The notes under the pieces are model-generated. The model saw only the letters and a program-made list of their open reading frames with translations. It ran no database searches and was not told the DNA's origin. A stretch of DNA of 64,000 bases from a virus: positions 2,532 to 66,531 of the IMG/VR virus record IMGVR_UViG_3300005915_000001, one strand, 5' to 3'. Both the position numbers and the translations under genes were made by a program. Positions within the stretch are counted from its first letter, which is position 1. Each line of letters begins with the position of its first letter. This document shows positions 2,965 to 19,070 of the stretch, one piece after another.

Positions 2965-3824
2965 AATTCTTCATTTCCAACTACTCCATACTTTGCACTT
3001 AATTTCAACGAGAATATCTCCCAGTGTTTGAGACGTTCAACGATAAACGTTTCATCATTCGTTGGTTGATTAACTAACATCGCTTCAACGTCACCACCAA
3101 GTTTCACTAATTCATAATTCTTATGAAACTCGCCTGTGTCGATAAACGCTGCGACGTTCGCTTTAAGAAGTACACCCCACTCAGCAGTTTTGAATTCTTC
3201 AAGCATCTCACTAATAGTCTTGTTGTTTGCATGACACCATATGATTAATGCCGCAAGGAACTTCTTTTTGATTCGAGGAACACCGATTACATTGTCACCT
3301 TTGTCACCAGTGAAAGACATGTACTCTGCGAGGTATTTTGGAGGCACACCATACTCTTCAAGAACTTTCGCAGCGTCCCAATGATACAGCTTACTTTGAA
3401 ATGATTTAAGCATTGTGACATTTACTCCAACAGCTTGTAGTAAATCGTGATCATTGGAATAAATGTAATGCTTGCCGGGTTGTAGCGACATTTTGTAAAT
3501 CACATCATCGGCTTCAAAGCCTTTGGCTTCGACAGTGACATATACGCACTTCAAAAACTTAATGAATACTTCAAGACGACTGTAATAGGTGTCTGACGGA
3601 ACCCTACCACGATTTGCTTTGTACATTGGGTATTTGTCTTTACGCCAACTTTTTTTAGAATCTAAGCACAGAACAATTTCTTGATCTGGGAATTTTCGTT
3701 GTAGACTTTCAATGATTCTTAACGTTCCAAATTCAATGCCTGTTTTTACTCCGGTTGATGCCATCAGAAAATCCATTTTAGCATAGCACCGTCGAACTAC
3801 CATACTGGTATCAATTATCATCAT
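2961..3824 (-). CDS. 5'-3' exonuclease/flap endonuclease (Pol I 5' domain, T5 D15-like)
   Basis: IIDTS, YKANR, EADDVI, SNDHDLLQ, GDKGDNVIGVPRI motifs. Confidence 0.92.
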   Translation of the reverse strand: MMIIDTSMVVRRCYAKMDFLMASTGVKTGIEFGTLRIIESLQRKFPDQEIVLCLDSKKSWRKDKYPMYKANRGRVPSDTYYSRLEVFIKFLKCVYVTVEAKGFEADDVIYKMSLQPGKHYIYSNDHDLLQAVGVNVTMLKSFQSKLYHWDAAKVLEEYGVPPKYLAEYMSFTGDKGDNVIGVPRIKKKFLAALIIWCHANNKTISEMLEEFKTAEWGVLLKANVAAFIDTGEFHKNYELVKLGGDVEAMLVNQPTNDETFIVERLKHWEIFSLKLSAKYGVVGNEEF

Positions 3825-4266
3825 CGTCGTTCACCTCTTTGTATTCCCTGAAATCTTCTATACTAGCATCCATGTTTTTATGATCTTCGGACGTCATTTC
3901 AAATTGAGATTGAAACGTTCGCAGGCACGCACCAGCGTTTTTACTTCTACCAAGTAGAATAAATACCGGCTCATCACTCAGTACTATTTCATTTGTAGCA
4001 ATGATCCGCAACCCGTCAATTGTAATATCAAACATCGGATTGTTGATCTGCGGAAATATAATAGATTGTGTAACAATTTCACGAGTATCTACCTTTGGTG
4101 CCTTTGCTATTGGAGGTGTGATGTAACTTTGATCTGTCTTTGGTAACGCACTTCCAATGCTCGTAACAGCTTGCCAATTGTCGCATGGATTAATGATTCC
4201 ACGCGTCTTACAAGTCTTATATCTTCCACAATTCCCGCATGATTTCGGTGTCTTAAATTCATCCAT
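3811..4266 (-). CDS. hypothetical protein with N-terminal Cys cluster
   Basis: CGNC..C..C; conserved leader at 4264-4281. Confidence 0.7.
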   Translation of the reverse strand: MDEFKTPKSCGNCGRYKTCKTRGIINPCDNWQAVTSIGSALPKTDQSYITPPIAKAPKVDTREIVTQSIIFPQINNPMFDITIDGLRIIATNEIVLSDEPVFILLGRSKNAGACLRTFQSQFEMTSEDHKNMDASIEDFREYKEVNDDDDN

Positions 4267-4281
4267 CGTACTATCTCCTAT

Positions 4282-4326
4282 AAAAACGGATGTGCGATTA
4301 CGAGCCTAATCAATAATCGCACATCC
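4282..4326 (-). terminator. 13-bp hairpin followed by U-tract (terminator or processing stem)
   Basis: GGATGTGCGATTA / TAATCGCACATCC perfect inverted repeat; GTTTTT follows on minus strand. Confidence 0.5.
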
Positions 4327-4448
4327 TAATTTGAGCCACACTTTAAATTACCGCTTTGGTTACGGCGTCCCTTTAGTTGCCCATGATATTTCTCCTTCAC
4401 AAAACAAGGTCTGTCTACTATATGGTGACACCGTAGATTTGTTAAACG

Positions 4449-4492
4449 AAAAAAGCCACACACAGACGTGATTGATACGTCGGTGCGTGGCT
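4449..4492 (-). terminator. intrinsic terminator
   Basis: GC-rich imperfect hairpin AGCCAC..GACGT/ACGTC..GTGGCT followed by a T-run on the minus strand, just after the CsrA-like gene. Confidence 0.6.
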
Positions 4493-4512
4493 CGTCATAA
4501 GAGAGTTTCTTA

Positions 4513-4677
4513 TTACATGTTCACATGTTCGATTTTCACATCTTTCGGGGCTTGGATTGAAATTGTCGCTGTTGATTGATTTGAGGAGTCAGCGATTGCT
4601 ATATCCGCGATCACAACACCGTCCTTTTTTAGGATGATTTTGGTTTTATTCGCCGTGATTTGTATTTGCAGTGCCAT
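4513..4677 (-). CDS. CsrA/RsmA-like RNA-binding protein (54 aa, divergent)
   Basis: MALQIQITANKTKIILKKDGVVIADIAIADSSNQSTATISIQAPKDVKIEHVNM; C-terminal I-x-APKDVKI matches the CsrA signature; RBS AAGGAG; below ORF-track length cutoff. Confidence 0.6.
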   Translation of the reverse strand: MALQIQITANKTKIILKKDGVVIADIAIADSSNQSTATISIQAPKDVKIEHVNM

Positions 4678-5008
4678 CAGCTTTCTCCTTTCTAATTTGT
4701 TCTACAAGATCTTTTATTTTCTGAATCTTTGCGTAATTTTCCAATAGAACGATTTGACGTTTGTCATATCGTTGAGTTCGTTCGATTTTACCAATCTCCA
4801 TGACAGCATTGTCATATTGAGATTGTATTTTTTCTATTTTATGATTAGCTTCATCTAAAATTACTTGTTGTTCAGAGATTCTTTCATTACACTGATCAAC
4901 GTCAAGATATGAGAGATTCGTCTTGACTATCACATCATCGAGTTTCATTGACTCTTTCAATGAAATGATTTTCTGTTTTATTTCTGCTGGTTTTAATTTC
5001 ATATTCAT
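4646..5008 (-). CDS. coiled-coil hypothetical protein
   Basis: ORF with RBS GGAGG/GAGG; heptad-rich sequence. Confidence 0.7.
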   Translation of the reverse strand: MNMKLKPAEIKQKIISLKESMKLDDVIVKTNLSYLDVDQCNERISEQQVILDEANHKIEKIQSQYDNAVMEIGKIERTQRYDKRQIVLLENYAKIQKIKDLVEQIRKEKADGTANTNHGE

Positions 5009-5015
5009 CTCCTAT

Positions 5016-5051
5016 AAAAATGTGTCGTGGGCACAAAGTACCCACGACACA
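5016..5051 (-). terminator. intrinsic terminator-like hairpin
   Basis: TGTGTCGTGGG / CCCACGACACA 11-bp stem followed by T5 on minus strand. Confidence 0.55.
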
Positions 5052-5081
5052 ACACGCAACACACAACACGCAACCCTCGGC

Positions 5082-5567
5082 TTAGTCGTCCTTCTCGGAT
5101 ACTTCAAGCATCTTGTTGACGGCTTCCTCACCCATAACTGCAATCAACTGTTGTTTCAGCTCGCTCAATTTGGATGTCATCTTGACAAGCTTCTTGGCCT
5201 TGGCACGATCCTTCGTTGATCCCATCTTCTCAGCTTCAACAGCCAATTTACGGAATGCAATCACTGCAAGTTCTGCACCAACCGCCCGCATTTCAAAGTA
5301 CAGATGATCACCAACATAATCCTTCTTTTTCAAGTTTACATGAATCTTGAAATCAAACCCTTCAGGAACAGCAACCTTAAAAGGATAGACTCCAGGGTTG
5401 AGATCACCGACCTTATCGAAGATTTCTTTTGTTACACGCTTTACCTTGTCAGGTGTTGGTTTTGCAAGTGACTCATCTTCAGCCTTGTCATTAACCTTGT
5501 CAGGTGTGGTCTTGTCATCGACCTTCGGTGCTGATACTGGTGCCTTTGCTGCGTTAGGTTTTGCCAT
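5082..5567 (-). CDS. hypothetical Lys/Asp-rich protein
   Basis: ORF with RBS AAGGAG; repeated TPDKV in N-terminus. Confidence 0.75.
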   Translation of the reverse strand: MAKPNAAKAPVSAPKVDDKTTPDKVNDKAEDESLAKPTPDKVKRVTKEIFDKVGDLNPGVYPFKVAVPEGFDFKIHVNLKKKDYVGDHLYFEMRAVGAELAVIAFRKLAVEAEKMGSTKDRAKAKKLVKMTSKLSELKQQLIAVMGEEAVNKMLEVSEKDD

Positions 5568-5622
5568 TTTAAATCTCCTTGCCCGTTGGGCATTGTAAAA
5601 TCACCCGTTAGGGCATTAATAA

Positions 5623-5676
5623 AAATACATTTAACCCGTGACACGCTTCCTCGCATGCCCTAGGCAAAACATACTT
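5623..5676 (-). ncRNA. conserved intergenic hairpin motif, copy A (unknown class)
   Basis: AAGUAUGU-UUUGCCUAG-GGCAUGC(GAGGAA)GCGUGUC-ACGGGUUAA-AUGUAUUU; covaries with copies B and C. Confidence 0.7.
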
Positions 5677-5845
5677 AGTAACTACTTCCAATCTGACAAC
5701 GACCCCTTTTGCCTTGCTTGTGATGTTGGCCATCGACGTGATGCTTGCCGCGAACTTTGAAACCACAATCACCACAGTACTTGTCACTATGCCGTTGCGG
5801 ATTCATTTTTGGACTGGAAGCAAAGATTTTCTTTTCATTCGGCAT
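5675..5845 (-). CDS. small basic Cys/His protein (start revised to 5845)
   Basis: Conserved leader before MPNEKK; CGDCG...HH...HH. Confidence 0.7.
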   Translation of the reverse strand: MPNEKKIFASSPKMNPQRHSDKYCGDCGFKVRGKHHVDGQHHKQGKRGRCQIGSSY

Positions 5846-5922
5846 TGTACTGTCTCCTATAAAAGTATTAGTTGAATTGCTATTAATATCCACCATTTAT
5901 CTCGCTGCGTCATGTCGCTACC

Positions 5923-6243
5923 TCAACTATTTTTATGGTAAGACAATTTACCATTTTCTCGCATTATACTCCACGCTTGACCATAATCCTCGTTCTTATT
6001 AACTGAGAACATAAAGTCTGCAAGCAGTCCGGCAGAAATATATTCTGATGGTTCGTTTCCGTATCTGATGCAAACACTTGTGCCAATCGAATCTTCGTAC
6101 ACATCAACATCGATCCAACGTTTCAATGGCTCTTCATGCTTATAATGCACAAGAATGTAATTTCCTGATCCGATGAAACAACCATCTCCATGATTACAGT
6201 GATTTTCCCAATGTCTCTTGCTTGACATGAATTCTATTCTCAT
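5923..6243 (-). CDS. hypothetical early protein (start revised to 6243)
   Basis: Conserved leader at 6241-6258. Confidence 0.75.
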   Translation of the reverse strand: MRIEFMSSKRHWENHCNHGDGCFIGSGNYILVHYKHEEPLKRWIDVDVYEDSIGTSVCIRYGNEPSEYISAGLLADFMFSVNKNEDYGQAWSIMRENGKLSYHKNS

Positions 6244-6283
6244 TGTACTATCTCCTATAAAAACTGTCATTTGATTCTTCGAA

Positions 6284-6523
6284 TTATTCCCCAAAGACTC
6301 TCAACTCTTCGAACTGATTAATCGAAACTTCATCGACTTTCAAGCCGTTGTCTTTGATGAACTCGATGACACGTTCCATTGCATCATCACCCATCGAAAT
6401 GGTCACCAACCAAGTTCCGTCAACATCTACAATATGGTAGCCATCATCAGGATCGCTCCACACAGAGACCATTGTGTAGATATTTGGATTAACAGAATTT
6501 ATTGTCGTTACTATCGCTGTCAT
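6284..6523 (-). CDS. hypothetical acidic early protein
   Basis: Conserved leader at 6521-6538. Confidence 0.75.
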   Translation of the reverse strand: MTAIVTTINSVNPNIYTMVSVWSDPDDGYHIVDVDGTWLVTISMGDDAMERVIEFIKDNGLKVDEVSINQFEELRVFGE

Positions 6524-6544
6524 TGTACTATCTCCTATAAAACA

Positions 6545-6600
6545 AAATTCAGTTAACCAGTGACACCCGATCCGTCGAGTGTCCTAGGCAAAGTGAACTT
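6545..6600 (-). ncRNA. conserved intergenic hairpin motif, copy B
   Basis: AAGUUCAC-UUUGCCUAG-GACACUCGA(CGGA)UCGGGUGUC-ACUGGUUAA-CUGAAUUU. Confidence 0.7.
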
Positions 6601-6994
6601 AGTCCATTGCAGCAATCTCAGCTTCCAATGCTTTGATCTTGTCAAGCTTTTTCTGTTTCAGTGCACCCTTGCGATTTGTCTTCGCGGTTTCGCGAGCATC
6701 TTTTGTTGATTCAAGATATAACTCGTTGGCCATAGCTTTGCTGATCTTATCCAGTTGGTAGAAAACCTTGTGAAGTTGATCTTGATATTTTCGACCGAGA
6801 TCATCTAGACCAAGTTCAATTTCGTTCACATTAATCATGGTGTTTCTGATTTTAACGCATCGTGCATTATTATGGACGATTTCCTTAATCGCATCAGAAC
6901 GAACTTTCTTTGCTTTCTTTGCAGCATCGACACGCTTTACCTTTGCGATTTCTTTGGTGTCGACGACCTTGGCTGTTTTCTTTGCAGTTGTCAT
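6599..6994 (-). CDS. basic coiled-coil early protein (start revised to 6994)
   Basis: Leader ATAGGAGATAGTATTATG before MTTAKK. Confidence 0.75.
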   Translation of the reverse strand: MTTAKKTAKVVDTKEIAKVKRVDAAKKAKKVRSDAIKEIVHNNARCVKIRNTMINVNEIELGLDDLGRKYQDQLHKVFYQLDKISKAMANELYLESTKDARETAKTNRKGALKQKKLDKIKALEAEIAAMD

Positions 6995-7020
6995 AATACT
7001 ATCTCCTATTAAAAAGTGAA

Positions 7021-7076
7021 AAATTTGGTTAACCAGTGACACTCAATCCGTTGAGTGTCCTAGGCAAAACAAACTT
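7021..7076 (-). ncRNA. conserved intergenic hairpin motif, copy C
   Basis: AAGUUUGU-UUUGCCUAG-GACACUCAA(CGGA)UUGAGUGUC-ACUGGUUAA-CCAAAUUU. Confidence 0.7.
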
Positions 7077-7305
7077 AGTCAAAACTCAACACTCCATAGT
7101 TGTGGTATGCATTCATGATGTTATCAGCTTTACATCTATCAGTCAGATATTTTACGCTTGTTAAAATATGCATAACATTCTTGTGCAAAGAAGTTGTTCC
7201 CATCAAATCACCAATACTTTGTGTGGTTCGATGAAGGGTTTTTTCATCACGTTGTTGGACTTCAGCTAAAACTTCACGATACAGTTTGTAGGTTGCATTC
7301 TTCAT
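7075..7305 (-). CDS. hypothetical early protein (start revised to 7305)
   Basis: Leader ATAGGAGATTGAAAATG before MKNATY; the longer ORF-track start would run through a ribozyme. Confidence 0.7.
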   Translation of the reverse strand: MKNATYKLYREVLAEVQQRDEKTLHRTTQSIGDLMGTTSLHKNVMHILTSVKYLTDRCKADNIMNAYHNYGVLSFD

Positions 7306-7327
7306 TTTCAATCTCCTATGAAAAAGT

Positions 7328-7391
7328 TTGACTTGTCTCATCAGACCATGAAGAGTCACTTGCATGGTGACACCCTTGCGGGTGTTTCGAC
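7328..7391 (-). ncRNA. type II hammerhead ribozyme
   Basis: GUC-GAAA-CACCC(GCAA)GGGUG-UC^-ACCAUG(..UGACU..)CAUGGU-CUGAUGA-GAC-AAGUCA: full catalytic core, three stems, loop I/3'-tail pseudoknot UGACU:AGUCA. Confidence 0.93.
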
Positions 7392-7493
7392 TTAAGTAAA
7401 TAAGTTGAGGATGTTTTGTATCCATAATGATTTGGAATTGTTTTTGATTCGTTTTGCAGCTCTTCGTTCCATTTCTCTTAAACCTTGTAACAT
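7392..7493 (-). CDS. 33-aa peptide
   Basis: Leader ATAGGAGATTGAAAATG; MLQGLREMERRAAKRIKNNSKSLWIQNILNLFT; stop abuts the hammerhead. Confidence 0.65.
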   Translation of the reverse strand: MLQGLREMERRAAKRIKNNSKSLWIQNILNLFT

Positions 7494-7530
7494 TTTCAAT
7501 CTCCTATGAAAAATGCCAAATTTAATAAAC

Positions 7531-7729
7531 AATAATTGCACCAACGTCCATATCCTTTAAGAATTGCGTAAATTCCGACTCTTATTGGCAAAGACTGTCT
7601 TCCCCACTTGACTGCTCAGTTCCCTGGATCAAGCAAAACGGGCCATCTGTCCCAGGTGAGGGTATTCAGTGTTTCAGAACCTTTGTCTGACTAAAAGTGT
7701 AACTCACTCACCACGCCGATACAATTATT
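7531..7729 (-). ncRNA. ~200-nt structured non-coding RNA of unknown class
   Basis: 17-bp closing stem AAUAAUUGUAUCGGCGU / ACGUUGGUGCAAUUAUU with G-U pairs that work only on the minus strand; several internal hairpins; no ORF-track ORF. Confidence 0.6.
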
Positions 7730-7740
7730 TTAATCTCCAA

Positions 7741-7797
7741 GCTGTCATCCTCAGACCATGAAGAGCCACTAAGACGTGGCTTTCATCGTGTTTCAAC
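7741..7797 (-). ncRNA. hammerhead-like element lacking stem III (variant or degenerate)
   Basis: GUU-GAAAC-ACGAUGAAAGCCAC(GUCUUA)GUGGCUCUUCAUGGU-CUGAGGA-UGAC; shares CUCUUCAUGGUCUGA with the 7328-7391 ribozyme. Confidence 0.55.
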
Positions 7798-8045
7798 TAT
7801 TGATAATCCCCTATATCATTCCAGTCTAAACACAAATCATTCCAAAAAGGCAATTCCTCCGAAAATGTTTGTCCCATATCTCGTAAAAAACCAAACAAGT
7901 TACTGTCTGCCGTGTCGGCTGATTTCAGTGCTTTGTCATATCGATCAGGATACAACTGTTCACAGATTTTATCTTTCTTTACCCAAGCAGAATTAGCTGT
8001 TTTGTTCAATTGATCTGCCTTGGTGATATTTTGTTTCTCAGTCAT
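7797..8045 (-). CDS. first early gene, hypothetical acidic protein
   Basis: Leader ATAGGAGATTGAAAAATG; flanked by hammerhead elements. Confidence 0.75.
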   Translation of the reverse strand: MTEKQNITKADQLNKTANSAWVKKDKICEQLYPDRYDKALKSADTADSNLFGFLRDMGQTFSEELPFWNDLCLDWNDIGDYQ

Positions 8046-8068
8046 TTTTCAATCTCCTATTGAATGTT

Positions 8069-8142
8069 TAAGCAATTCTCATCAGGCCGTGTTGCTTAGG
8101 CACGACGACCAACAAAGTACCATTCCTTTGCTGGTTTCGATT
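8069..8142 (-). ncRNA. type II hammerhead ribozyme
   Basis: AAUC-GAAA-CCAGCAAAG(GAAUGGUA)CUUUGUUGG-UC^-GUCGUG(CCUAAGCAA)CACGGC-CUGAUGA-GAAUUGCUUA; 7-bp pseudoknot UAAGCAA:UUGCUUA. Confidence 0.93.
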
Positions 8143-8272
8143 TTGGAGATAAACTAATCTTGTTATCTAGCAGACCATTAATCATCACTAGTTTCCGGAT
8201 TTTTTATTCTAGGCTCGTTTTCAAAACCTCATATTATTCAGTTTTCAATTGTCTTCTACTTCTACTATCGGT

Positions 8273-8301
8273 ATTTTACACTGATTAGTTTAACCTGTCT
8301 A
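8273..8301 (-). promoter_or_regulatory. sigma70-type early promoter
   Basis: TAGACA-17 nt-TAAAAT with A/T-tract UP-like element upstream (8303-8335). Confidence 0.7.
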
Positions 8302-8524
8302 GTTAAAAAATAGATATTTTTGAAAAAATTTTTCAACAGACTCATATCTCACTAAATTTCAATCCCAGGGAATCCCATCAGATCCAGCCTGTATCTATAG
8401 TATACTATACGTTCTACGCCTCACCACAATCTATACGGCATTGACAGGCTATTAAACTCCCATAGAGGGGATAATCGCATATATAGACCCGACGACACCT
8501 CAGAAACGCCTGTATGGACGCTTC

Positions 8525-8598
8525 TAAGTCCTTATGCACGCTAGACTTATAGTCGCCAGAATGGGTGATCCTGTAAGTATAGTGTGCATAAAGACTTA
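8525..8598. repeat. inverted pair of TAAGT(C/A)-N13-GACTTA palindromic sites
   Basis: 8525-8549 and 8574-8598 are near reverse complements; same motif at 22395-22419. Confidence 0.6.
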
Positions 8599-10527
8599 TA
8601 GCACTTTATCTGGAACTATAATTTTCCCCTTCTTGCCACCTGCAATGGCCCAATTTTCTTCAGACGTTCCACATGCGATCCGCATTGGTACCCTGAATTT
8701 AATTCCAGTGTCTTCAAATTGTGATTTGATTTCAGTAAGAGCTGTCACGTCTTTGCTCAAACCTTTCGGGGCATACATTGCGACTTCATCATGCACACTT
8801 GCAAAGTTCTTAATTCCTAAATCTCTAATGAATTTATTATATCTCGGAGCCATTGCTACCATTCTCTCTTTAATGATGTCAGCTGCACAAGATTGAATAA
8901 TAGAGTTGAACGCCCGAAAGCTTGCTTTCTCAGGTAAGTGACGTTGACGCCCATATGCATTGAAAACAAATCCTCTTGAGATAAGATTATCTCTTGCTTG
9001 TTTCGTTGTTCGTTTTATTCCTGGTAGTGTGTCATGGTATTCCTGGTAAACCTGCTCACCACGTTGATTGCATAATAATTGAAAAATCTTTTCACGTGCA
9101 GCGACATTTGCTTTTCCACTTGCTATGATTGCGTCGGTTTTATCTGCTAAGTGACCTACCAAATCCATATTAAGTGAAAGCATTGACACAACACGAGCTT
9201 TGCCTCCACCAAACGCTATTGCAAAGTTTACGTTCTTTGCCGGATCACGAGGAATTTTGCACATATCAGCAACCCATTGATGAAAGTCTATATCTGGATT
9301 TTTTGCGAATGCGGCAATAGCTTTTGCATCTTTGATGTACGAAATAATTAATCGGAACTCGATTTGACTATAGTCCCACGAAAGAATCTCTTGATCCTCT
9401 GGTGGATGGATTAAGGCCTTTGCTTCCTTAGACAATTGCTGTGAGTTTGGTCGACGACATGACATGCGACCAGTTCGAACTATTTGATTGTAAGATGGGT
9501 GCATGAGCCCATCGATTTGATGTTCTTGATAAGGTTTAATAAAGATACTATATAAAGTATGCATCTTTCTGTACTTCTGGATCTTTGTGACAATGTTCAT
9601 CAACTCAGGTGACTCACGAACTATTGGGTAGGATAAATATGAAAGCATTGCAGCTTTATTAAACGATGGCTCGTTCTTGTCAGTGTATCCCATAACGGGT
9701 AGGCCATACTTATTACACAAAACTTCGAAACAATCTGCATTAGTATGGGGACGAATAGCAAACCCAGTTAGCTTATGTAATTCTTCTTCGAGATTTATTA
9801 ATTTATACAGAAGAACCATTTCAGTTTGATCTAATTCTAATGGATCAACATTAAGACCCTCTACTTCCATATCAAATAAAACAGGTGTCAATAGGATTTC
9901 AGTTTCCCATATTCCTAAAGTCTGTTCATGTCGACGACGCAACATATAATTATACAATTTGCGATTAGTCAAAACATCTTGACAACCATACTCTCCAATG
10001 ATGTCACCAGGCACGTCACCATAGTCTTTGCTCTTACATCCAGTCAAATAATTTTGTAAACGATTATCTAAATACTTAATATCTTCTTCAAGCCAATCTC
10101 GTGACAATGAACCAAGATCATGTGCAAACCTGTCACTATTGATTATCTTTGCAAGAGTGTTAGTATCTACCAATCGACAATCGAACTCAATGTTGTCTTG
10201 CTTTACAAAGTGTGCGTCAAATTTTACATTGTGATTCACCCAATCGTCACAAGAATTAATTGTATCTCTAGCCCAATTAATCACCCCTTCAAGTGGTAAG
10301 TTCCATTTTTCATGATGACAACGGATCGGCATGTACCAAGCACCTTTGATATCGTCAGCAGTGACACCTATACCACAGACACGATGCCCATGATATGGCT
10401 TAAACGACTTAACCTTTGGATCAAAGGACGTACACTCTGTATCAAGAAATAAAGACTTAGCATTTTTTAGGTTTGGTAGCTCGTCCAAAGTTTGAACCAA
10501 CCTACCACCGTTTTCAAAGTTAATCAT
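8596..10527 (-). CDS. polA: family A DNA polymerase with 3'-5' exonuclease
   Basis: FLDTE, NHNVKFD, Y..QD exonuclease motifs; TGRMS, DYSQIEFR (motif A), AKNVNFAIAFG (motif B), VHDE (motif C). Confidence 0.95.
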   Translation of the reverse strand: MINFENGGRLVQTLDELPNLKNAKSLFLDTECTSFDPKVKSFKPYHGHRVCGIGVTADDIKGAWYMPIRCHHEKWNLPLEGVINWARDTINSCDDWVNHNVKFDAHFVKQDNIEFDCRLVDTNTLAKIINSDRFAHDLGSLSRDWLEEDIKYLDNRLQNYLTGCKSKDYGDVPGDIIGEYGCQDVLTNRKLYNYMLRRRHEQTLGIWETEILLTPVLFDMEVEGLNVDPLELDQTEMVLLYKLINLEEELHKLTGFAIRPHTNADCFEVLCNKYGLPVMGYTDKNEPSFNKAAMLSYLSYPIVRESPELMNIVTKIQKYRKMHTLYSIFIKPYQEHQIDGLMHPSYNQIVRTGRMSCRRPNSQQLSKEAKALIHPPEDQEILSWDYSQIEFRLIISYIKDAKAIAAFAKNPDIDFHQWVADMCKIPRDPAKNVNFAIAFGGGKARVVSMLSLNMDLVGHLADKTDAIIASGKANVAAREKIFQLLCNQRGEQVYQEYHDTLPGIKRTTKQARDNLISRGFVFNAYGRQRHLPEKASFRAFNSIIQSCAADIIKERMVAMAPRYNKFIRDLGIKNFASVHDEVAMYAPKGLSKDVTALTEIKSQFEDTGIKFRVPMRIACGTSEENWAIAGGKKGKIIVPDKVL

Positions 10528-12926: not shown

Positions 12927-13709
12927 TCATTCTCCAAAGAACTTATCTAACATGTCATCTATCTTTTTATCTTTCGGATTTCTATAAGTCGGATCAATAC
13001 GAACAGCAGCGTCATCAAAATAAAATTCGTCTAATTCTATTCCAATAAAGTTTCTATTCAAATTCACACATGCTACACCAGTTGTACCTGATCCCATACA
13101 GAAGTCCAAAACAGTCTCGCCTTCGTTTGTGTAGGTCTTGATTAGGTACTCCATCAGGGCGACAGGCTTTTGAGTGGGGTGAACCCGACACTTCTGCTTA
13201 TCGGTGGGGAAATGCAATACGGTTCTGGGGTATCTTTCTGTTGAATCATAGCCCACCAACCCATGTTCTCCATAGCAATCTGTTTTTACACAGCCCCGTT
13301 TATGTTCCGCAGTGCTGACTTTGCGTTTGTGTCCGGTTGTTTTCTGGGGGTTGTAGATTGGAGGTGAGGCATAAAACACTGGAATGTCCTCGTGAGCCTT
13401 CATAGGCATCTTTTTAGCATTCAAATGGCCTGTGGCTGCAGACTTATCCCACACCCAGCAATACTTAAACCACGGCATGTTAGAGCCTATCAGCGTCGTT
13501 GTGAACGGCTGCGAAGCAGTCATGACAATCGCACCATTGGGCTTAATAACCCGCCTCAGATGTGCCCACATTGACTCCAACGGAATTATACTATCCCACT
13601 CACATGCCGTTGTACCATATGGAGGATCAGCCAAAACCATGTCCACAGACCCATCAGGAATTGATTTCATTTCTTCAAGACAATCGCCATTGATTAGTTG
13701 TATAGACAT
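12927..13709 (-). CDS. N4C/N6A DNA methyltransferase (beta class)
   Basis: [21 protein letters not shown] motifs. Confidence 0.92.
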   Translation of the reverse strand: MSIQLINGDCLEEMKSIPDGSVDMVLADPPYGTTACEWDSIIPLESMWAHLRRVIKPNGAIVMTASQPFTTTLIGSNMPWFKYCWVWDKSAATGHLNAKKMPMKAHEDIPVFYASPPIYNPQKTTGHKRKVSTAEHKRGCVKTDCYGEHGLVGYDSTERYPRTVLHFPTDKQKCRVHPTQKPVALMEYLIKTYTNEGETVLDFCMGSGTTGVACVNLNRNFIGIELDEFYFDDAAVRIDPTYRNPKDKKIDDMLDKFFGE

Positions 13710-13717
13710 CTGATTTC

Positions 13718-14552
13718 CTAAAACTCCTTGAAAAACATATCTAATATGTCATCTATCTTTTTATCTTTAGGATTTCTATATTTTGGATCTATTCTAATTG
13801 CAGCATCATCAAAATAGAATTCATCTAACTCAATGCCTATGAAACTTCTGTTTAAATTCACGCATGCTACACCAGTTGTACCACTACCCATACAAAAGTC
13901 CAAGAACTGTATCACCTTCATTGCTCCATGAAATGATGTGATCGTTTGCTAATTTTTCTGGGAAAGGTGCTGGATGTATACTTCTAAGACTTTGTGGATT
14001 AATATTCCATATATTATACCGTTGCCCAAATTCAGGTTGAATAGATCCTTCATTACTCATTCGTTTCATTGATCCATCAGATTGCCTTATTGTGCCTCTT
14101 TTAATTGATCCAAACGAATTGCATACCCTGTCCTTGATTGGATTGAATGTTTTTAGATTACACTCACTGAAAACAAACATATACTCAAACACTGATGCAT
14201 ACCTAACAATTAATGTACCAACTGCAGAGAATCCAGGCTTTGCATATATCATCGTGTCATGCAAATTGAATCCACAATCCATTGCATACAATGCTTGCTT
14301 GAAACTCGTTCCTGTTTCGCTCCCATTAACAGTTGCATCTCCAACAACCCATACAACGACTCCACCTATTTTAGTAACACGATAGAGATTTTCAATACAT
14401 GGTTTCCATATATGTGGTCCCCATCCTTTGAAATCTTCACCGTAATCTCTCAGATTATCATATGGTGGACTCGTGACAGTTAGATCAACTGACCCATCAG
14501 GAATTGATTTCATTTCTTCAAGGCAATTACCATGTATTAGTTGTATAGACAT
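13718..14552 (-). pseudogene. N4C/N6A DNA methyltransferase with 1-nt insertion at ~13905
   Basis: TSPPY, HPAPFP; AAGTCCAAGAACTGT here versus AAGTCCAAGACTGT in the paralogue at ~58911; SAM-binding motif is in the other frame. Confidence 0.85.
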
Positions 14553-14558
14553 TTGATT

Positions 14559-17471
14559 TTAGAACTCCTCATTCACATAGTCAGGTCGAGCATTTAATTT
14601 CATTTCGTCTGACACTAGCAACTCTTTCAAAAACTCAATGAACTTTGGAGTCTTGCGATAACCACGACCGTCGCGCTGTAGTGCATTCTTTCTAACAAGC
14701 AGCGAAAGCAGCTGAGCCGTTGGCCCTTTGTCCCATCCACACCAGTCACAAATATCTCTGAACTCAATTAGATTTGTATAAAGCAACTGCTGAACAAAGT
14801 CTTCAGGAAATGGTGATTGTAATATTCGTTGTGATAATAACTTTGGATTTAATAATTTGTTTGTAGCACTAATCGCTTTACTGAAATCTCGATACCCAAA
14901 AATACTTTCCGAGTATGTTTTCTCAAGATATTTTGTAATATATTCAACGTGACATCGTCGTACTATTACAGTATGCAAGTCACCATCTTCTGTCGAGAAT
15001 GTCCGGCAAGCCAATGCAATTGCCAATCTACAAAGCTTGAACCTCATTGAACCACGGTCAACTATTGGTATGATCTCTGTGAACATTGTGCAAAGTCTTG
15101 TTGCTTCATCCAGAATAAAATCAACAGCATCATCTGTGAATGTCACTTGCTCAGCTGTTCGTGTCCATGCCCAAAGAATTAACGACTTACTTAATTTCGC
15201 TGTGTGCTTATGCTCTACGTGTGGTCTATACTTTTGTAGTTTATTCAGCACATCAGATTTTATCTGTGTAGACGCAGTGATTAAGACAGTATCAAATCGT
15301 CGGATGTCTTCAAGACTACCAATAAGTTCTTTGACAGCTTCAATGCCAAAGTTGTATGAACTAATCGGCATGTCACTACGTGGATTACTCACCATTATTA
15401 GTCTAGTCCTGGCATGGGTTCGTCGCTTTTCAATCTTCGGAATTTCAGCAACTCCTGACGAACGCATGTCTGTAAGTTTTCCAATAACTTCAACACTTGT
15501 TCCTTTGATTTCTTCGAGGATGACAAGACGCTTATCGTGAGTAGGTATGACTCCCCACGTAACAAACCACCGATTACCAGAACTGACTTGTTGGAGTCCT
15601 CCAAGAAGTCCCGCGACTGTTGCATTCTTACATTCGATTCGTTCGCCGAGTCCATAGTGTTCCATTAATCTTAAAATCGCTTCTGATTTTCCCTGTGAAC
15701 TGTCCCCAGTAATTAAAGTCTCTACCCAACCTTTTGTGAGCTTACCATCGAACTTAAATAACAACGTGCTATGATACGTCAAGTCAATTACAAAATGAAG
15801 AGGTTGTCTTTCAAAAATGTGTGTTATGTTTGCAGACAGATCATCATATATATTTTTGAGTTTCTTATCTATTGATTCAACAGTCCACTCATCTGGTTGA
15901 AAAATTTCTAATTCTTTTAACTCATTGTCATCAGGTTTGAAATTTGACAAAGCATCTTCAGTAGTTTTTGATTCACTGATTAGAATTATGCTTTGTTGCG
16001 TTTTTGGATGCGGATACATCCTACCAATGAACTCATAGTTTTCATTAGTCTCAAGACCATGACCAACACACAATGCAGGTTGTAATATATCATCAACAGA
16101 TCTTGAACTGATTTCTAACTGCGGTGACAATCGAATATCTTCGATATTAAAATATGTCTCTGGCTTGAATTCTACATTCTTGCATGTTGGAATATGTAGA
16201 CCATCCATTAAAGCTTCTCGTTGTGTGCTTTTCCCTGCTGCTACCATCTCAAGTATAGCTGGTGATTCTGGATGTAATTCAATTGAAACCATTCCATCTA
16301 CATCAGGATCTTTTGCAAAAACTGGGCATATACTGCATCCATTTTGATTTCTATCACAATTAGCTTTGATCTTTCTCGGTATAACATAAGGGGCAGTGTC
16401 CATTGCAGTCACTGTCGCTTTTATTCTGATTCGTTTGCCTGTGTACTTGGCTTGCGATGCTTGATTTAGATGCAAGTCAATTATCTCTGTGCTCATCTCC
16501 GAACTAACTTCGAACACTGATTCCCACTCAGATGTGGACTCCATGAGTTTTATAAAGCTTGGTGCTGTCTTTTTCTCCACTCCAAAATAATCATTGATGT
16601 CGCCATTAGGATGCTTTTCAACGTCTAACGGTAATAAGATATTAAAAATCTTATTTACATCTTTCTTTAATCTTGCACAAATAGAATCAGCAGCATCACG
16701 ACCTGCCTTGTCTATATCAGTGCAAGCATAGACGTCCTTACCTTTAAAGAATTGGTTGAATGATATGTCCCAATTACCTTCACCCGCAGTTGCTGTTATT
16801 GCTCCGATCCCGTGTTTGTTTAATCTAGCAGCAGCAACAATTGCTTTCACCTCACCTCCACATAAAATTATTTTACCATACTTCAATTGTTCAAGAGGAA
16901 ATAGTCTAATCTTACCATGACCTCTTTTATTTTTCATTTTCTCTGGTCCAGGGGCTCCTGGAAGATATCGGCGGACATTAACTATTACGCCGTTTACGTT
17001 CGGAATTGGAATACTAATTCGACCATCATCACAACCTAATCTATATTTTCTAATTACAGTGTCGGTGACTCCTCTATCACGAAGAGCTTTCAACAAAGGC
17101 TTTGCAGCCCATATACTTTCATGCCATCGCTCGACAGCACTTGTATCTATCGGCTTGATATTTTCAATTGCATATCGTGTAGACAACTCCTCCCACATGA
17201 CTACACGGGTAGTGCTTAGAGCTTTAGCCAAGTAGGAAACTAAATCCCCTTTTGCACCACAGCCTGCGGTGTGACATTTGAATAAATTATTCTTAACATT
17301 TATGGAACAACTTGGAGTTTTATCATCATGAAATACACACTTGACTTTAACCTCATTTTCCGTTGCAAACTCATACGGTATACCACACCGTTCGAGTTCG
17401 GCTAAACATCCTATACTCTGTAGTTGTTGCTCTGTCATTAAATTCAACCGTATAAGAAACAGCGACGACAC
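14559..17471 (-). CDS. primase-helicase fusion: CHC2 Zn finger + TOPRIM primase + MCM-type AAA+ helicase (ATG start probably 17438)
   Basis: CVFHDDKTPS..C..C; DIDKAG TOPRIM; GDSSQGKS, ATVAGLLGG, VILEEI, SNP, RRFD matching MCM motifs. Confidence 0.85.
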   Translation of the reverse strand: MSSLFLIRLNLMTEQQLQSIGCLAELERCGIPYEFATENEVKVKCVFHDDKTPSCSINVKNNLFKCHTAGCGAKGDLVSYLAKALSTTRVVMWEELSTRYAIENIKPIDTSAVERWHESIWAAKPLLKALRDRGVTDTVIRKYRLGCDDGRISIPIPNVNGVIVNVRRYLPGAPGPEKMKNKRGHGKIRLFPLEQLKYGKIILCGGEVKAIVAAARLNKHGIGAITATAGEGNWDISFNQFFKGKDVYACTDIDKAGRDAADSICARLKKDVNKIFNILLPLDVEKHPNGDINDYFGVEKKTAPSFIKLMESTSEWESVFEVSSEMSTEIIDLHLNQASQAKYTGKRIRIKATVTAMDTAPYVIPRKIKANCDRNQNGCSICPVFAKDPDVDGMVSIELHPESPAILEMVAAGKSTQREALMDGLHIPTCKNVEFKPETYFNIEDIRLSPQLEISSRSVDDILQPALCVGHGLETNENYEFIGRMYPHPKTQQSIILISESKTTEDALSNFKPDDNELKELEIFQPDEWTVESIDKKLKNIYDDLSANITHIFERQPLHFVIDLTYHSTLLFKFDGKLTKGWVETLITGDSSQGKSEAILRLMEHYGLGERIECKNATVAGLLGGLQQVSSGNRWFVTWGVIPTHDKRLVILEEIKGTSVEVIGKLTDMRSSGVAEIPKIEKRRTHARTRLIMVSNPRSDMPISSYNFGIEAVKELIGSLEDIRRFDTVLITASTQIKSDVLNKLQKYRPHVEHKHTAKLSKSLILWAWTRTAEQVTFTDDAVDFILDEATRLCTMFTEIIPIVDRGSMRFKLCRLAIALACRTFSTEDGDLHTVIVRRCHVEYITKYLEKTYSESIFGYRDFSKAISATNKLLNPKLLSQRILQSPFPEDFVQQLLYTNLIEFRDICDWCGWDKGPTAQLLSLLVRKNALQRDGRGYRKTPKFIEFLKELLVSDEMKLNARPDYVNEEF

Positions 17472-18449: not shown

Positions 18450-19070
18450 TTATTTTCGTTTGGTTAATACATTTTCCATCTCTTCATCCTTTCCTGAGAT
18501 GTTTTCAAACACAGCTAACAATTCATCAAGCCCTTTATAGGGGGTGATACGCATTTTGTATTGAGTGTAGGTTTTCTCGGCGTCAATTCCTGCTGGTAGT
18601 GGTTTGCCTTGCTCTGCAAGACTCGAAATATGCTCCATGATCCCAGGCCAGTAGGGTTTCACGGTGTTGTCTGCAACTGCCTTGGGATCAACACCTAATG
18701 CATTCATCAATGCGTTGAACTTCTCAGGCTCTCGATTTTTATTTGGAATTGCAGCAGCGATTTTGATGTCTGGAGTACCAGTTGCTAGAGATGCTTTGAT
18801 ATTTATACTTGAACCAAAAGTTACCCATAATGCACATGCAACGTTAATTGCAATCTGCTCTACCCCATTGCATTCTTTACGTAGGTCGTCAGAGAATTTT
18901 GAAATGTCACGTAGGACATACACTACATTTACTAAATCAGGCATAGTATATTTGTTTGCTTTTATCTTGTCTCGAATCATTGAGATGCACTGGTAGCAAT
19001 CTAAATATGTTTGCCTCATAAGCTTGTATTTCATTATCAAATCATACAAGTCTGCCGTTGGTTCATTCAT
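18450..19070 (-). CDS. hypothetical replication-module protein
   Basis: ORF coupled to neighbours. Confidence 0.7.
   Translation of the reverse strand: MNEPTADLYDLIMKYKLMRQTYLDCYQCISMIRDKIKANKYTMPDLVNVVYVLRDISKFSDDLRKECNGVEQIAINVACALWVTFGSSINIKASLATGTPDIKIAAAIPNKNREPEKFNALMNALGVDPKAVADNTVKPYWPGIMEHISSLAEQGKPLPAGIDAEKTYTQYKMRITPYKGLDELLAVFENISGKDEEMENVLTKRK

What the first reader, a model, noticed from the sequence alone, without database searches (positions are those of the whole stretch)
5623..7076. Unrecognised covarying RNA motif (3 copies) in the same intergenic slot as hammerhead ribozymes
Seen: three early-gene spacers (5623-5676, 6545-6600, 7021-7076) start at the upstream stop codon and read, on the minus strand, outer stem - UUUGCCUAG - inner hairpin - AC(U/G)GGUUAA - outer stem. 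The outer and inner stems differ in sequence but keep pairing (GGCAUGC/GCGUGUC, GACACUCGA/UCGGGUGUC, GACACUCAA/UUGAGUGUC, several G-U pairs), while the two 9-nt core strands are nearly invariant. No U-tract directly follows the GC-rich inner stem. By eye it does not match hammerhead, twister, twister-sister, pistol, hatchet, HDV or hairpin ribozyme cores. Known: several self-cleaving ribozyme classes were found by their genomic association with known ribozymes in phage-like loci, and T7 cuts its early transcript at RNase III stems. Inference: this is an mRNA-processing element equivalent to the neighbouring hammerheads, either a new small ribozyme class or a nuclease/protein recognition site.
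Basis: partly seen in the sequence, partly recalled or inferred. Interest (0 to 1): 0.88.

Follow-up and report, generated by a model that had tools for sequence, protein, structure and literature searches.

The report
Repeated RNA hairpin between phage genes
Three gaps between small genes of an uncultured 66-kb phage carry the same conserved, uncatalogued RNA hairpin in the place where neighbouring gaps carry hammerhead ribozymes; it most likely marks where a host enzyme cuts and caps the long message and is probably not a new ribozyme.

Summary
Three copies (5623-5676, 6545-6600, 7021-7076, minus strand) match a pattern with 0 chance matches in 100 shuffles. Each folds far better than shuffles (z -4.0 to -5.0), and none matches an Rfam family. 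A covariance model finds 14 copies (10 distinct), all in this phage and three related metagenomic contigs. IMG/VR, metagenome and genome scans gave no others.

Pairing is kept in 98.5% of cells. Nine of 21 pairs change on both sides, and two G-U pairs are invariant, so this is a sense-strand RNA structure.

The two "core" strands pair with each other, vary in 3 of 10 distinct copies and covary (C-G to U-A). The whole element is one imperfect hairpin of about 26 rungs with a small, movable internal loop. That argues against a catalytic core.

My best reading (0.45) is a T7-like intercistronic signal cut by a host RNase III-type enzyme, which leaves a protective 3' hairpin. No cleavage has been shown. 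Rivals are a leaky terminator, a protein site on the conserved GGA loop, a recombination boundary and a ribozyme (about 0.03). Earlier notes of this scan describe similar hairpins in hammerhead slots on other phage DNA.

The parts
7021..7076 (-). Hairpin copy C. It runs from the TAA stop of the 76-aa ORF to the U-run ahead of the shared RBS leader of the 129-aa ORF.
   Evidence: Pattern match. Covariance-model hit 7018-7079 at 88.7 bits. Fold -22.9 kcal/mol, z -4.00.
6545..6600 (-). Hairpin copy B, between the 129-aa and 79-aa ORFs.
   Evidence: Pattern match. Covariance-model hit 6542-6603 at 86.2 bits. Fold -25.7 kcal/mol, z -4.98. A DNA contig of run X7 departs from the window inside its 3' strand, at 6557.
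5623..5676 (-). Hairpin copy A, with a 7-bp upper stem and the loop GAGGAA. It lies between the 57-aa and 161-aa ORFs.
   Evidence: Pattern match. Covariance-model hit 5620-5679 at 71.4 bits. Fold -22.9 kcal/mol, z -4.06. Seven G-U pairs; the antisense strand folds at only -5.3 kcal/mol.
7327..7392 (-). Type II hammerhead in the spacer before the 76-aa ORF, in the same stop-to-RBS slot.
   Evidence: Rfam RF02276, 35.6 bits (gathering score 37), E 9.6e-05, full model length.
8069..8142 (-). Hammerhead-like element in the operon leader, carrying GAAAC and CUGAUGAG.
   Evidence: My own reading. Rfam gave no hammerhead match here at E<=10. By my reading it corresponds to L047:803-877, which scores 33.4 bits as Hammerhead_II; the two stretches were not aligned.
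8273..8336 (-). Sigma-70-like promoter candidates upstream of the small-ORF operon.
   Evidence: Consensus scan: TAGACA-17-TAAAAT (10 of 12) and TTGAAA-18-TATTTT (9 of 12). The total number of promoter-like sites is not above shuffles (18 against 14.9).
5021..5051 (-). Canonical terminator-like hairpin after the 161-aa ORF: 14 pairs, 8 of them G-C, then UUUUU. It serves as a contrast to the motif.
   Evidence: Called by the terminator scan, which called none of the three motif copies.

Best explanation
The element is a lineage-specific structured RNA. It is a single imperfect hairpin of about 56 nt in the polycistronic mRNA of a small-ORF operon of a siphovirus-like phage.

From base to tip it has:
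- a 7-pair basal stem that includes the AA of the upstream TAA stop and the following G;
- a conserved, partly paired segment UUUGC / GUUAA;
- a 3x3 internal loop (usually UAG / ACN);
- a 7-9 bp G+C-rich upper stem;
- a GGA-containing loop.

Shown: the structure, its strand, its conservation by compensatory change, and its fixed position between the stop codon and the next ribosome-binding site.

Inferred: it is a processing and stability signal for a host double-strand-specific endoribonuclease of the RNase III type, as at the T7 early-region sites. A cut at or near the internal loop would free the downstream cistron with a short U-rich leader. It would leave the upstream cistron capped by the upper hairpin, which protects against 3' exonucleases. 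This is the job the neighbouring hammerheads are thought to do by self-cleavage.
For: - The structure is real and selected. There are 14 copies, 10 distinct. 98.5% of cells are paired, 9 of 21 pairs change on both sides, and 0 of 500 shuffles reach the observed paired share or covariation score. Slid registers reach 18-41% paired.
- It is RNA of the sense strand. G-U pairs at columns 6/58 and 15/49 are invariant. The model scores 57-89 bits on the sense strand against 19-24 bits on the antisense strand. Folding energy is -20.5 to -23.4 kcal/mol on the sense strand and -5.3 to -20.0 on the antisense strand.
- The size and shape fit RNase III substrates: 21 standard pairs plus about 5 non-canonical rungs, with an internal loop 7-9 bp below the hairpin loop. 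Passages in two papers (PMC3867540; PMC1540722) say that substrates typically span two helical turns (22 bp). They also say that internal loops or bulges restrict cleavage to one strand, and that this leaves 3' hairpins which stabilise the product.
- It sits in the slot used by self-cleaving elements. A hammerhead lies at 7327-7392 in the adjacent spacer. In relative L105, a weak homologue of the 57-aa ORF (52% over 27 aa, E 2e-4) is followed by an element with a complete hammerhead core by my reading, where the window has copy A.
- A distant relative, L113 (DNA polymerase 38% identical), has a hammerhead at 40.1 bits. It fills the same slots with an unrelated set of long imperfect hairpins whose basal stem also holds the stop codon.
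- Perreault et al. 2011 (PMC3088659, passages) report hammerheads flanking single genes in prophages and propose that they process long phage transcripts.
- The terminator scan called none of the three copies.
Against: - No RNA data exist for this phage, so no cut has been seen.
- The host is unknown, so its RNase III and that enzyme's sequence rules cannot be checked.
- The phage encodes no RNase III of its own (PF14622, 0 matches in the complete genome).
- UUUGC/GUUAA and the loop GGA are invariant in 10 of 10 distinct copies. That is more sequence conservation than a purely shape-read dsRNA site needs and could point to a sequence-specific protein.
- A run of 4-5 U follows the hairpin in 8 of 10 distinct copies, which fits a weak terminator.
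- All copies come from one narrow lineage of four contigs, so some of the invariance may be shared descent or gene conversion.
- Rfam did not score the L105 hammerhead-like element, and the homology that defines the shared slot is weak.
Confidence: 0.45

Rival explanations
1. Leaky intrinsic terminator or attenuator. The hairpin plus the following U-run stops a share of host RNA polymerases in each spacer, which would give a gradient of expression along the operon. Because the stop codon lies in the basal stem, this could be modulated by the ribosome terminating there.
For: UUUU or UUUUU follows the basal stem in 8 of 10 distinct copies, and the next 10 nt are U-rich. The hairpin starts at the stop codon, as many terminators do. 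The hairpin is stable, at -20 to -23 kcal/mol.
Against: - The terminator scan called 4 sites in 3500-9000, none of them a motif copy.
- The stem next to the U-run is A-U and G-U rich with mismatches. This phage's canonical terminator-like hairpin at 5021-5051 has a perfect G+C-rich stem.
- Two of 10 distinct copies have UUCGAU in place of the U-run.
- The U-run largely pairs with the AAG that spans the end of the stop codon.
- Five downstream genes have no convincing promoter of their own, so termination could only be partial.
Confidence: 0.2
2. Binding site for a sequence-specific RNA-binding protein. One example is a CsrA/RsmA-type regulator that grips the GGA in the hairpin loop together with the GGA of the downstream AGGAG, and so represses or times translation of the next cistron.
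For: - GGA is in the loop of 10 of 10 distinct copies, even where both the stem sequence and the loop length differ (CGGA, AUGGAA, GAGGAA).
- A second GGA lies in the shared RBS about 35 nt downstream. That CsrA dimers bridge two such sites is recalled knowledge.
- UUUGC/GUUAA is invariant.
Two of its 3 known homologues end in ...KIER or ...KIGR.
Against: - That ORF has no CsrA match in Pfam at E<=10.
- The CsrA family has no match anywhere in the genome at E<=10.
- A model of the ORF (pLDDT 77.5, five strands) has no PDB match at E<=0.001, and no CsrA appears among the rows shown.
- By recall, known CsrA sites are short hairpins. A 26-rung helix is not needed for them.
Confidence: 0.1
3. Mainly a DNA-level or selfish repeat. 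It would be a conserved intergenic junction at which related phages exchange gene cassettes by homologous, illegitimate or attC-like recombination, with the hairpin having little role in RNA.
For: - The copies lie in consecutive spacers, an arrangement that Weinberg et al. 2017 (PMC5737381, passages) note is typical of attC sites.
- L047 and L114 carry an extra 92-aa ORF right after copy B, flanked by a direct repeat of the hairpin's 3' strand: 16 nt in L047 and 11 nt in L114.
- Contigs of run X7 depart from the window at 6557 (inside the 3' strand of copy B) and at 7077 (the 5' edge of copy C).
- At the syntenic site B, four different hairpin alleles occur among closely related contigs.
Against: - There is no tyrosine recombinase in the complete genome (PF00589, 0 matches).
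- The 5' strand lacks an inverse-core box complementary to GTTAA (attC box consensus recalled).
- The end of the inserted cassette has no hairpin of its own (z -0.5 and -1.1).
- Other mosaic junctions lie at the shared RBS leader and start codons, not at the hairpin (6241, 6521, 7305, 7493).
- Compensatory changes and invariant G-U pairs show selection on a folded single strand, which plain recombination homology does not need.
Confidence: 0.1
4. A new minimal self-cleaving ribozyme, with its active site formed by the internal loop and the conserved flanking pairs.
For: It lies in the same slot as hammerheads. Several ribozyme classes were found through such association (Weinberg 2015, seen only as cited in PMC5737381). 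UUUGC/GUUAA is invariant and 7 of 10 distinct copies share UAG/ACN. It matches no known RNA family.
Against: - The core is not invariant. The 5' strand has 3 versions and the 3' strand has 6 among 10 distinct copies.
- One change is compensatory between the two strands (C-G to U-A).
- In L114:2678-2739 the upper helix extends through the usual loop positions.
- Column 45 is U, C or G with no partner change.
- Very few nucleotides are unpaired and there is no sign of tertiary pairing. By recall, all natural self-cleaving classes are more complex.
Confidence: 0.03

Closest known systems
RNase III processing signals of phage T7 polycistronic mRNAs (R0.3-R1.3 and the late sites; site names recalled)
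   Same: Both are repeated hairpins in the spacers between cistrons of a phage operon. Both span about two helical turns, with upper and lower stems separated by an internal loop. The copies within one phage resemble each other. The expected outcome is a single-strand cut that leaves a protective 3' hairpin (general properties from passages of PMC3867540, and PMC1540722).
   Different: There is no sequence relation, and cleavage is untested. The host and its RNase III are unknown. The stop codon lies inside the basal stem. The loop GGA and UUUGC/GUUAA are invariant. The element is known from only four metagenomic contigs.
Clustered type II hammerhead ribozymes flanking single genes in phages and prophages (Rfam RF02276; Perreault et al. 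2011, PMC3088659)
   Same: It occupies the same slot, from stop codon to next RBS, in the same operon. The proposed role is the same: cutting a long phage transcript into gene-length mRNAs.
   Different: It has no hammerhead core and no Rfam match. The architecture is a single hairpin, and the cut, if any, would need a protein enzyme.
Integron attC sites and the DUF1874 motif (Weinberg et al. 2017, PMC5737381)
   Same: Imperfect hairpins in consecutive intergenic regions, with presence or absence of cassettes beside them.
   Different: There is no integrase and no inverse-core box. The inserted cassette lacks a hairpin of its own.
Long-hairpin repeats in hammerhead slots noted earlier in this scan on other phages (e1-5797087, e1-5911700, e1-6054691, e1-6002585)
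   Same: The layout and the suggested role are the same. These are AI notes, not independent evidence.
   Different: They lie in other genomes. A look-up by sequence with copy B found no look-alike stretch.

Membership tests
RNase III processing signal (T7 type) | Hairpin with about two helical turns (about 20-22 bp) of double-stranded RNA | tested here: met
   21 standard pairs plus about 5 non-canonical rungs; 98.5% of cells paired across 10 distinct copies; folds.
RNase III processing signal (T7 type) | Internal loop, bulge or mismatch at the target site that limits cleavage to one strand | tested here: inconclusive
   A 3x3 internal loop lies 7-9 bp below the hairpin loop. Whether it is the target site is unknown.
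RNase III processing signal (T7 type) | Cleavage by RNase III in vitro or in vivo | not testable with these tools
   No RNA run is listed. The phage has no RNase III gene and the host is unknown.
RNase III processing signal (T7 type) | Intercistronic position in a polycistronic phage transcript | tested here: met
   All 3 window copies run from the upstream stop codon to the next RBS leader. No convincing internal promoters were found.
Known self-cleaving ribozyme classes in Rfam 15 (class names recalled, for example hammerhead, twister, pistol, hatchet) | Match to the family covariance model | tested here: not met
   0 matches at gathering score. No match overlaps a copy at E<=10.
New self-cleaving ribozyme class (hypothetical) | Invariant unpaired catalytic core across members | tested here: not met
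   Three versions of the 5' strand and six of the 3' strand among 10 distinct copies. There is one compensatory change between the strands, and the loop is displaced in L114:2678-2739.
New self-cleaving ribozyme class (hypothetical) | Self-cleavage giving 2',3'-cyclic phosphate and 5'-OH ends | not testable with these tools
   This needs in vitro transcription or end-specific RNA-seq.
Intrinsic (Rho-independent) terminator | G+C-rich stem directly followed by a U-tract | tested here: not met
   The scan did not call any of the 3 copies, though it called the hairpin at 5021-5051. The stem next to the U-run is A-U and G-U rich, and 2 of 10 distinct copies lack the U-run.
Integron attC site | Paired R''/R' core boxes (RYYYAAC / GTTRRRY, recalled) and an integron integrase | tested here: not met
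   The 3' strand has GTTAAAT or GTTAACY, but the 5' strand has UUUGC, not the complementary box. PF00589 has 0 matches in the complete genome.
CsrA/RsmA-binding hairpin | GGA presented in a hairpin loop, with a second GGA at the Shine-Dalgarno sequence | tested here: met
   Loop GGA in 10 of 10 distinct copies. AGGAG lies in the downstream leader.
CsrA/RsmA-binding hairpin | A cognate CsrA-family protein | tested here: not met
   There is no PF02599 match in the 54-aa ORF or in the genome, and no CsrA among the Foldseek rows shown. A host CsrA cannot be assessed.

The most novel reading that the evidence does not exclude
The hairpin is a minimal, previously unseen self-cleaving or otherwise autonomous RNA-processing motif. 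Its active site would be built from the invariant UUUGC/GUUAA segment and the adjacent internal loop. The three variant copies would be tolerated or inactive forms.
Probability: 0.03. Interest if true: 0.9.

Novelty: new member of a known kind. Interest (0 to 1): 0.36.

Why it matters
If the hairpins are nuclease-cut processing signals, this phage uses two solutions side by side for one task: self-cleaving hammerheads in the first spacers and protein-cut hairpins in the later ones. That would make the long-proposed but unproven role of phage hammerheads, cutting polycistronic messages into stable units, directly testable, because the two kinds of element could be swapped. The element is also an uncatalogued structured RNA with clear covariation. 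Its reach is small, though: four metagenomic contigs of one lineage. The kind of element has been known since the T7 RNase III sites, and this scan has noted similar cases on other phage DNA.

Tried and rejected
- **Known RNA family:** rejected. Rfam gave nothing on the copies.
- **Wider distribution:** none was found.
  - Three IMG/VR pattern scans hit true copies only in L009/L114 and L047. The other stretches (89 of 91, 13 of 15, 0 of 2) were single chance matches without the hairpin. Scripts checked this for (which reported 91 stretches and listed 80).
  - One metagenome scan gave 20 stretches. Three were true: L116 and L131 are the same records as L009 and L047, and L123 is new.
  - One genome scan gave 15 stretches, none confirmed by the model; the best was 19 bits, E 0.14.
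  - blastn of 4800-8600 against 50,697 phage records gave no match.
- **Model search in relatives:** no copy in the 9 loci L105-L113 (DNA polymerase 38-85% identical). L106 ends near the polymerase gene, so its small-ORF region is not covered.
- **Expression:** no RNA holder is listed among the 23 runs, so ends and cuts could not be seen. The four DNA runs laid (X4-X7) gave only short low-depth contigs. Stretches without cover are not used as evidence.
- **CsrA-like reading of the 54-aa ORF:** not supported by Pfam, PDB sequences, the protein atlas or Foldseek. CsrA is, by recall, an intertwined dimer, so a monomer model may miss it. No dimer was folded and complex prediction was not used.
- **K-turn, loop E and UAA/GAN internal-loop motifs:** considered by eye from recalled consensus sequences and not matched. 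No tool test was run.
- **attC-like site:** rejected (see membership test).
- **Hammerheads at 8069-8142 and 7741-7797:** Rfam gave no hammerhead match in a narrow scan. I keep the first as hammerhead-like on my own reading only.
- **L105 element at 14892-14990:** not scored by Rfam. It is hammerhead-like on my reading only.
- **Supplements:** supplementary files of the papers were not opened. Those of PMC5737381 list many motifs and assays that could bear on whether a similar hairpin was seen before.
Full report
**Setting.** The window is 64 kb of a 66.5-kb virus record. The record's ends repeat 100 bases, so the contig is probably circular or terminally redundant, and it is rated complete. 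Nearly all of the 48 ORFs of 150 aa or more lie on the minus strand.

PHROGs names a terminase, head proteins, a tape-measure protein, a central tail fibre, a helicase, a primase and a family A DNA polymerase at 8596-10527. Downstream of the polymerase on the minus strand come:
- a non-coding stretch of about 550 nt with promoter-like sites at 8336-8273;
- a run of small ORFs with no Pfam family (0 families for 10 proteins);
- a 5'-3' exonuclease and a ligase-like gene.

The three motif copies lie in this run of small ORFs.

**The observation.** On the minus strand each copy begins at the TAA of the upstream ORF. Each reads: basal stem, UUUGCCUAG, G+C-rich hairpin, AC(U/G)GGUUAA, basal stem, U-run, then the shared leader UUUUAUAGGAGAU and the start codon.
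- The pattern TTGCCTAG-N15-35-ACNGGTTAA has 3 matches, and none in 100 shuffles. The 10-mer TTTGCCTAGG has only these three exact sites.
- A relaxed expression finds only the same three in the whole genome.
- Folding gives -22.9, -25.7 and -22.9 kcal/mol, with z -4.06, -4.98 and -4.00.
- Rfam 15 gives nothing at gathering score over the window, and nothing on the copies at E<=10 in 4800-8600.
- That same scan finds a type II hammerhead at 7327-7392 (35.6 bits, gathering score 37) in the neighbouring spacer, so "same slot as hammerheads" is right.
- A second hammerhead-like element at 8069-8142 has the core by my reading, but Rfam did not score it. By my reading, its counterpart in L047 scores 33.4 bits.

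**What the fold shows.** The minimum-energy structures do not leave the two 9-nt "cores" as an open loop. They pair with each other (UU with AA, GCC with GGU). The whole element is therefore one long imperfect hairpin with a U/U mismatch, a mismatch at the top of the basal stem, and a small internal loop next to the upper stem.

**Relatives.** Exact-pattern scans of IMG/VR, of the metagenome collection and of one genome per prokaryote species were followed by a covariance model built from seven copies.
- True copies occur only in the window (3), L047 (4), L114, which is L009 reversed (4), and L123 (3). That is 14 copies, 10 of them distinct.
- All other pattern hits were single chance matches.
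- Nine loci fetched through the DNA polymerase (38-85% identical, L105-L113) have no copy. L106 ends near the polymerase gene, so its small-ORF region is not covered.
- The family is therefore confined to one narrow phage lineage.

**Covariation.** On the model-fitted alignment:
- 98.5% of 202 cells form standard pairs.
- 9 of 21 pairs change on both sides, in 25 cells.
- No shuffle of 500 reaches the observed paired share or covariation score, whereas 86 of 500 reach the number of further pair types.
- Sliding the 3' partners by 1-3 columns drops pairing to 18-41%.

The tool warns that related sequences and a fitted alignment both inflate such figures. The slid controls and the many double changes between near-identical contigs still make the helix convincing.

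At the syntenic site after the 129-aa ORF, four hairpin alleles occur in contigs whose flanking genes are 83-87% identical in protein. For example, L114:2678-2739 differs from the copy C type by G-C to A-U and A-U to G-C at the two outermost pairs of the upper stem.

The structure is strand-specific. Invariant G-U pairs at 6/58 and 15/49 would be C-A on the other strand. The model scores 57-89 bits on the sense strand against 19-24 bits on the antisense strand. The antisense folds are weaker in every distinct copy.

**The cores are not a catalytic core.** Among the 10 distinct copies:
- The 5' strand is UUUGCCUAG in 7, UUUGCUUAG in 2 and UUUGCUAAG in 1.
- The 3' strand is ACUGGUUAA in 5, and ACCGGUUAA, ACGGGUUAA, UCUAGUUAA, UCUGUGUUAA and CUGUGUUAA in 1 each.
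- C17-G46 becomes U-A in L047:2286-2345, which is a compensatory change between the two strands.
- Column 45 is U, C or G with no partner change.
- In L114:2678-2739 the upper helix extends through the usual loop positions and the unpaired bases move down.

Three things are invariant: UUUGC, GUUAA and a GGA in the hairpin loop (CGGA in 8, AUGGAA in 1, GAGGAA in 1). Folding energy is strikingly uniform, at -20.5 to -23.4 kcal/mol. This pattern is that of a helix read for its shape, plus a few sequence-specific contacts. It is not the pattern of a small ribozyme.

**How it most likely works.** The element has 21 standard pairs plus about 5 non-canonical rungs, which is about two helical turns. 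An internal loop lies 7-9 bp below the hairpin loop.

Passages read in two papers on bacterial RNase III make the following points (PMC3867540; PMC1540722):
- substrates typically have two helical turns, with an idealised substrate of 22 bp;
- internal loops, bulges or mismatches limit cleavage to one phosphodiester;
- this leaves 3' hairpins that protect the product from exonucleases.

T7 places such sites between its early cistrons (site names recalled; the early-region layout is my own knowledge).

Placed between the stop codon and the next RBS, a cut on the 3' side of the loop would leave the upstream cistron capped by the upper hairpin. The downstream cistron would get a short U-rich leader. 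All of this is inference.

The phage has no RNase III of its own, so a host enzyme would be needed. The host is unknown.

**Support from context.** Perreault et al. 2011 (PMC3088659, passages) found hammerheads flanking single genes in prophages and proposed that they process long phage transcripts.

In L105, a weak homologue of the 57-aa ORF (52% over 27 aa, E 2e-4) is followed by an element with a full hammerhead core by my reading: GAAA, a GUC after a 9-bp stem III, an 8-bp stem I and CUGAUGA. The window has copy A at that place. Rfam did not score this element, perhaps because of its 31-nt stem III loop.

L113 is a distant relative with a hammerhead above the gathering score (40.1 bits). 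It fills the same slots with an unrelated set of long imperfect hairpins whose basal stem also contains the stop codon.

Earlier notes of this scan describe the same layout in other phages. They are leads, not evidence.

**Rival: terminator.** A run of 4-5 U follows the basal stem in 8 of 10 distinct copies. Several points weigh against a terminator:
- the run pairs with the AAG that spans the end of the stop codon;
- the adjoining stem is weak;
- the scan that called the canonical hairpin at 5021-5051 called none of the copies;
- two copies lack the run;
- the five genes downstream have no convincing promoter.

Partial termination remains possible.

**Rival: protein site.** The invariant loop GGA, with a second GGA in the RBS about 35 nt away, would suit a CsrA-type dimer (recalled).
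- That ORF has no CsrA match.
- It has only three near-identical relatives.
- A five-strand model (pLDDT 77.5) gave no significant PDB match. A monomer model is a weak test for what is, by recall, an intertwined dimer.

**Rival: recombination boundary.** L047 and L114 carry an extra 92-aa ORF flanked by a direct repeat of the hairpin's 3' strand, 16 nt long in L047 and 11 nt in L114. DNA contigs depart from the window at 6557 and 7077. Weinberg et al. 2017 note that motifs in consecutive spacers can be attC-like.

Against this reading:
- there is no integrase;
- there is no inverse-core box;
- the cassette end has no hairpin of its own;
- other junctions lie at the shared leader instead.

Gene shuffling at these conserved spacers looks real, but it is probably a by-product.

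**Rival: ribozyme.** This is disfavoured for the reasons given above, at about 0.03.

**Verdict.** This is a genuine, uncatalogued, covarying RNA hairpin family of narrow distribution, placed where hammerheads sit. It is most likely a nuclease-read processing and stability signal of the T7 RNase III kind (0.45). It is very unlikely to be a new ribozyme. That makes it a new member of a known kind. The interest is moderate, chiefly because hammerheads and hairpins side by side in one operon offer a direct test of what phage hammerheads are for.

Noticed in passing
window 8046-8595 (-); L047:1-300; L114:380-640: About 550 nt of non-coding sequence follows the DNA polymerase stop. By eye, its first 250 nt or so are nearly identical in L047 and L114. 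It could be a structured RNA or a replication or packaging signal. Promoter-like sites follow at 8336-8273.
   Followed up: no
window 7510-7740 (-): A non-coding stretch of about 230 nt lies between a hammerhead-like remnant (7741-7797, no Rfam match) and a 33-aa ORF. The 252-nt gap folds at -65.8 kcal/mol.
   Followed up: no
window 5570-5618 (-): Between copy A and the RBS of the 161-aa ORF lie two small hairpins built on a direct repeat (AAUGCCC..GGG). They are also present, with changes, in L047 and L114.
   Followed up: no
window 5021-5051 (-); L047:3815-3845: A perfect 14-bp terminator-like hairpin plus UUUUU sits directly before the RBS of the next gene. L047 keeps it through compensatory changes. 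The downstream gene has no evident promoter, so read-through or processing is needed here too.
   Followed up: partly
L047:2346-2672; L114:2740-3066: An extra 92-aa ORF is inserted after copy B relative to the window. It is flanked by a direct repeat of the hairpin's 3' strand (16 nt in L047, 11 nt in L114), and its stop codon lies in that repeat. A contig of run X7 shows the same junction at window 6557.
   Followed up: partly
window 6241, 6521, 7305, 7493: DNA contigs of runs X4-X7 share the RBS leader and then run on into different sequence at the start codons. Assembly joints skip between copies of the shared leader. Related strains therefore swap genes behind a constant leader.
   Followed up: partly
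L113:15181-15234, 15391-15486, 18721-18775, 18989-19054, 19655-19708: A different family of long imperfect hairpins occupies the stop-to-RBS slot of a distant relative that also has a hammerhead (L113:21600-21664, 40.1 bits). The basal stem includes the stop codon and ends just before GGAG.
   Followed up: partly
L105:13147-13230 and 13655-13736: Two near-identical copies of another structured spacer element start at the stop codon and are followed by the same kind of leader. There was no Rfam match at E<=1.
   Followed up: no
L105:14892-14990 and 15683-15745: Two hammerhead-like elements. The first has a complete core by reading but a 31-nt stem III loop, and Rfam does not score it. The second scores 28.2 bits and has CCGAUGA in place of CUGAUGA.
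   Followed up: partly
window 4513-4677 (-): A 54-aa all-beta ORF at the end of the small-ORF block has only three near-identical relatives in 5.8 billion proteins. Two of the three have Arg where the window has His near the C-terminus.
   Followed up: partly
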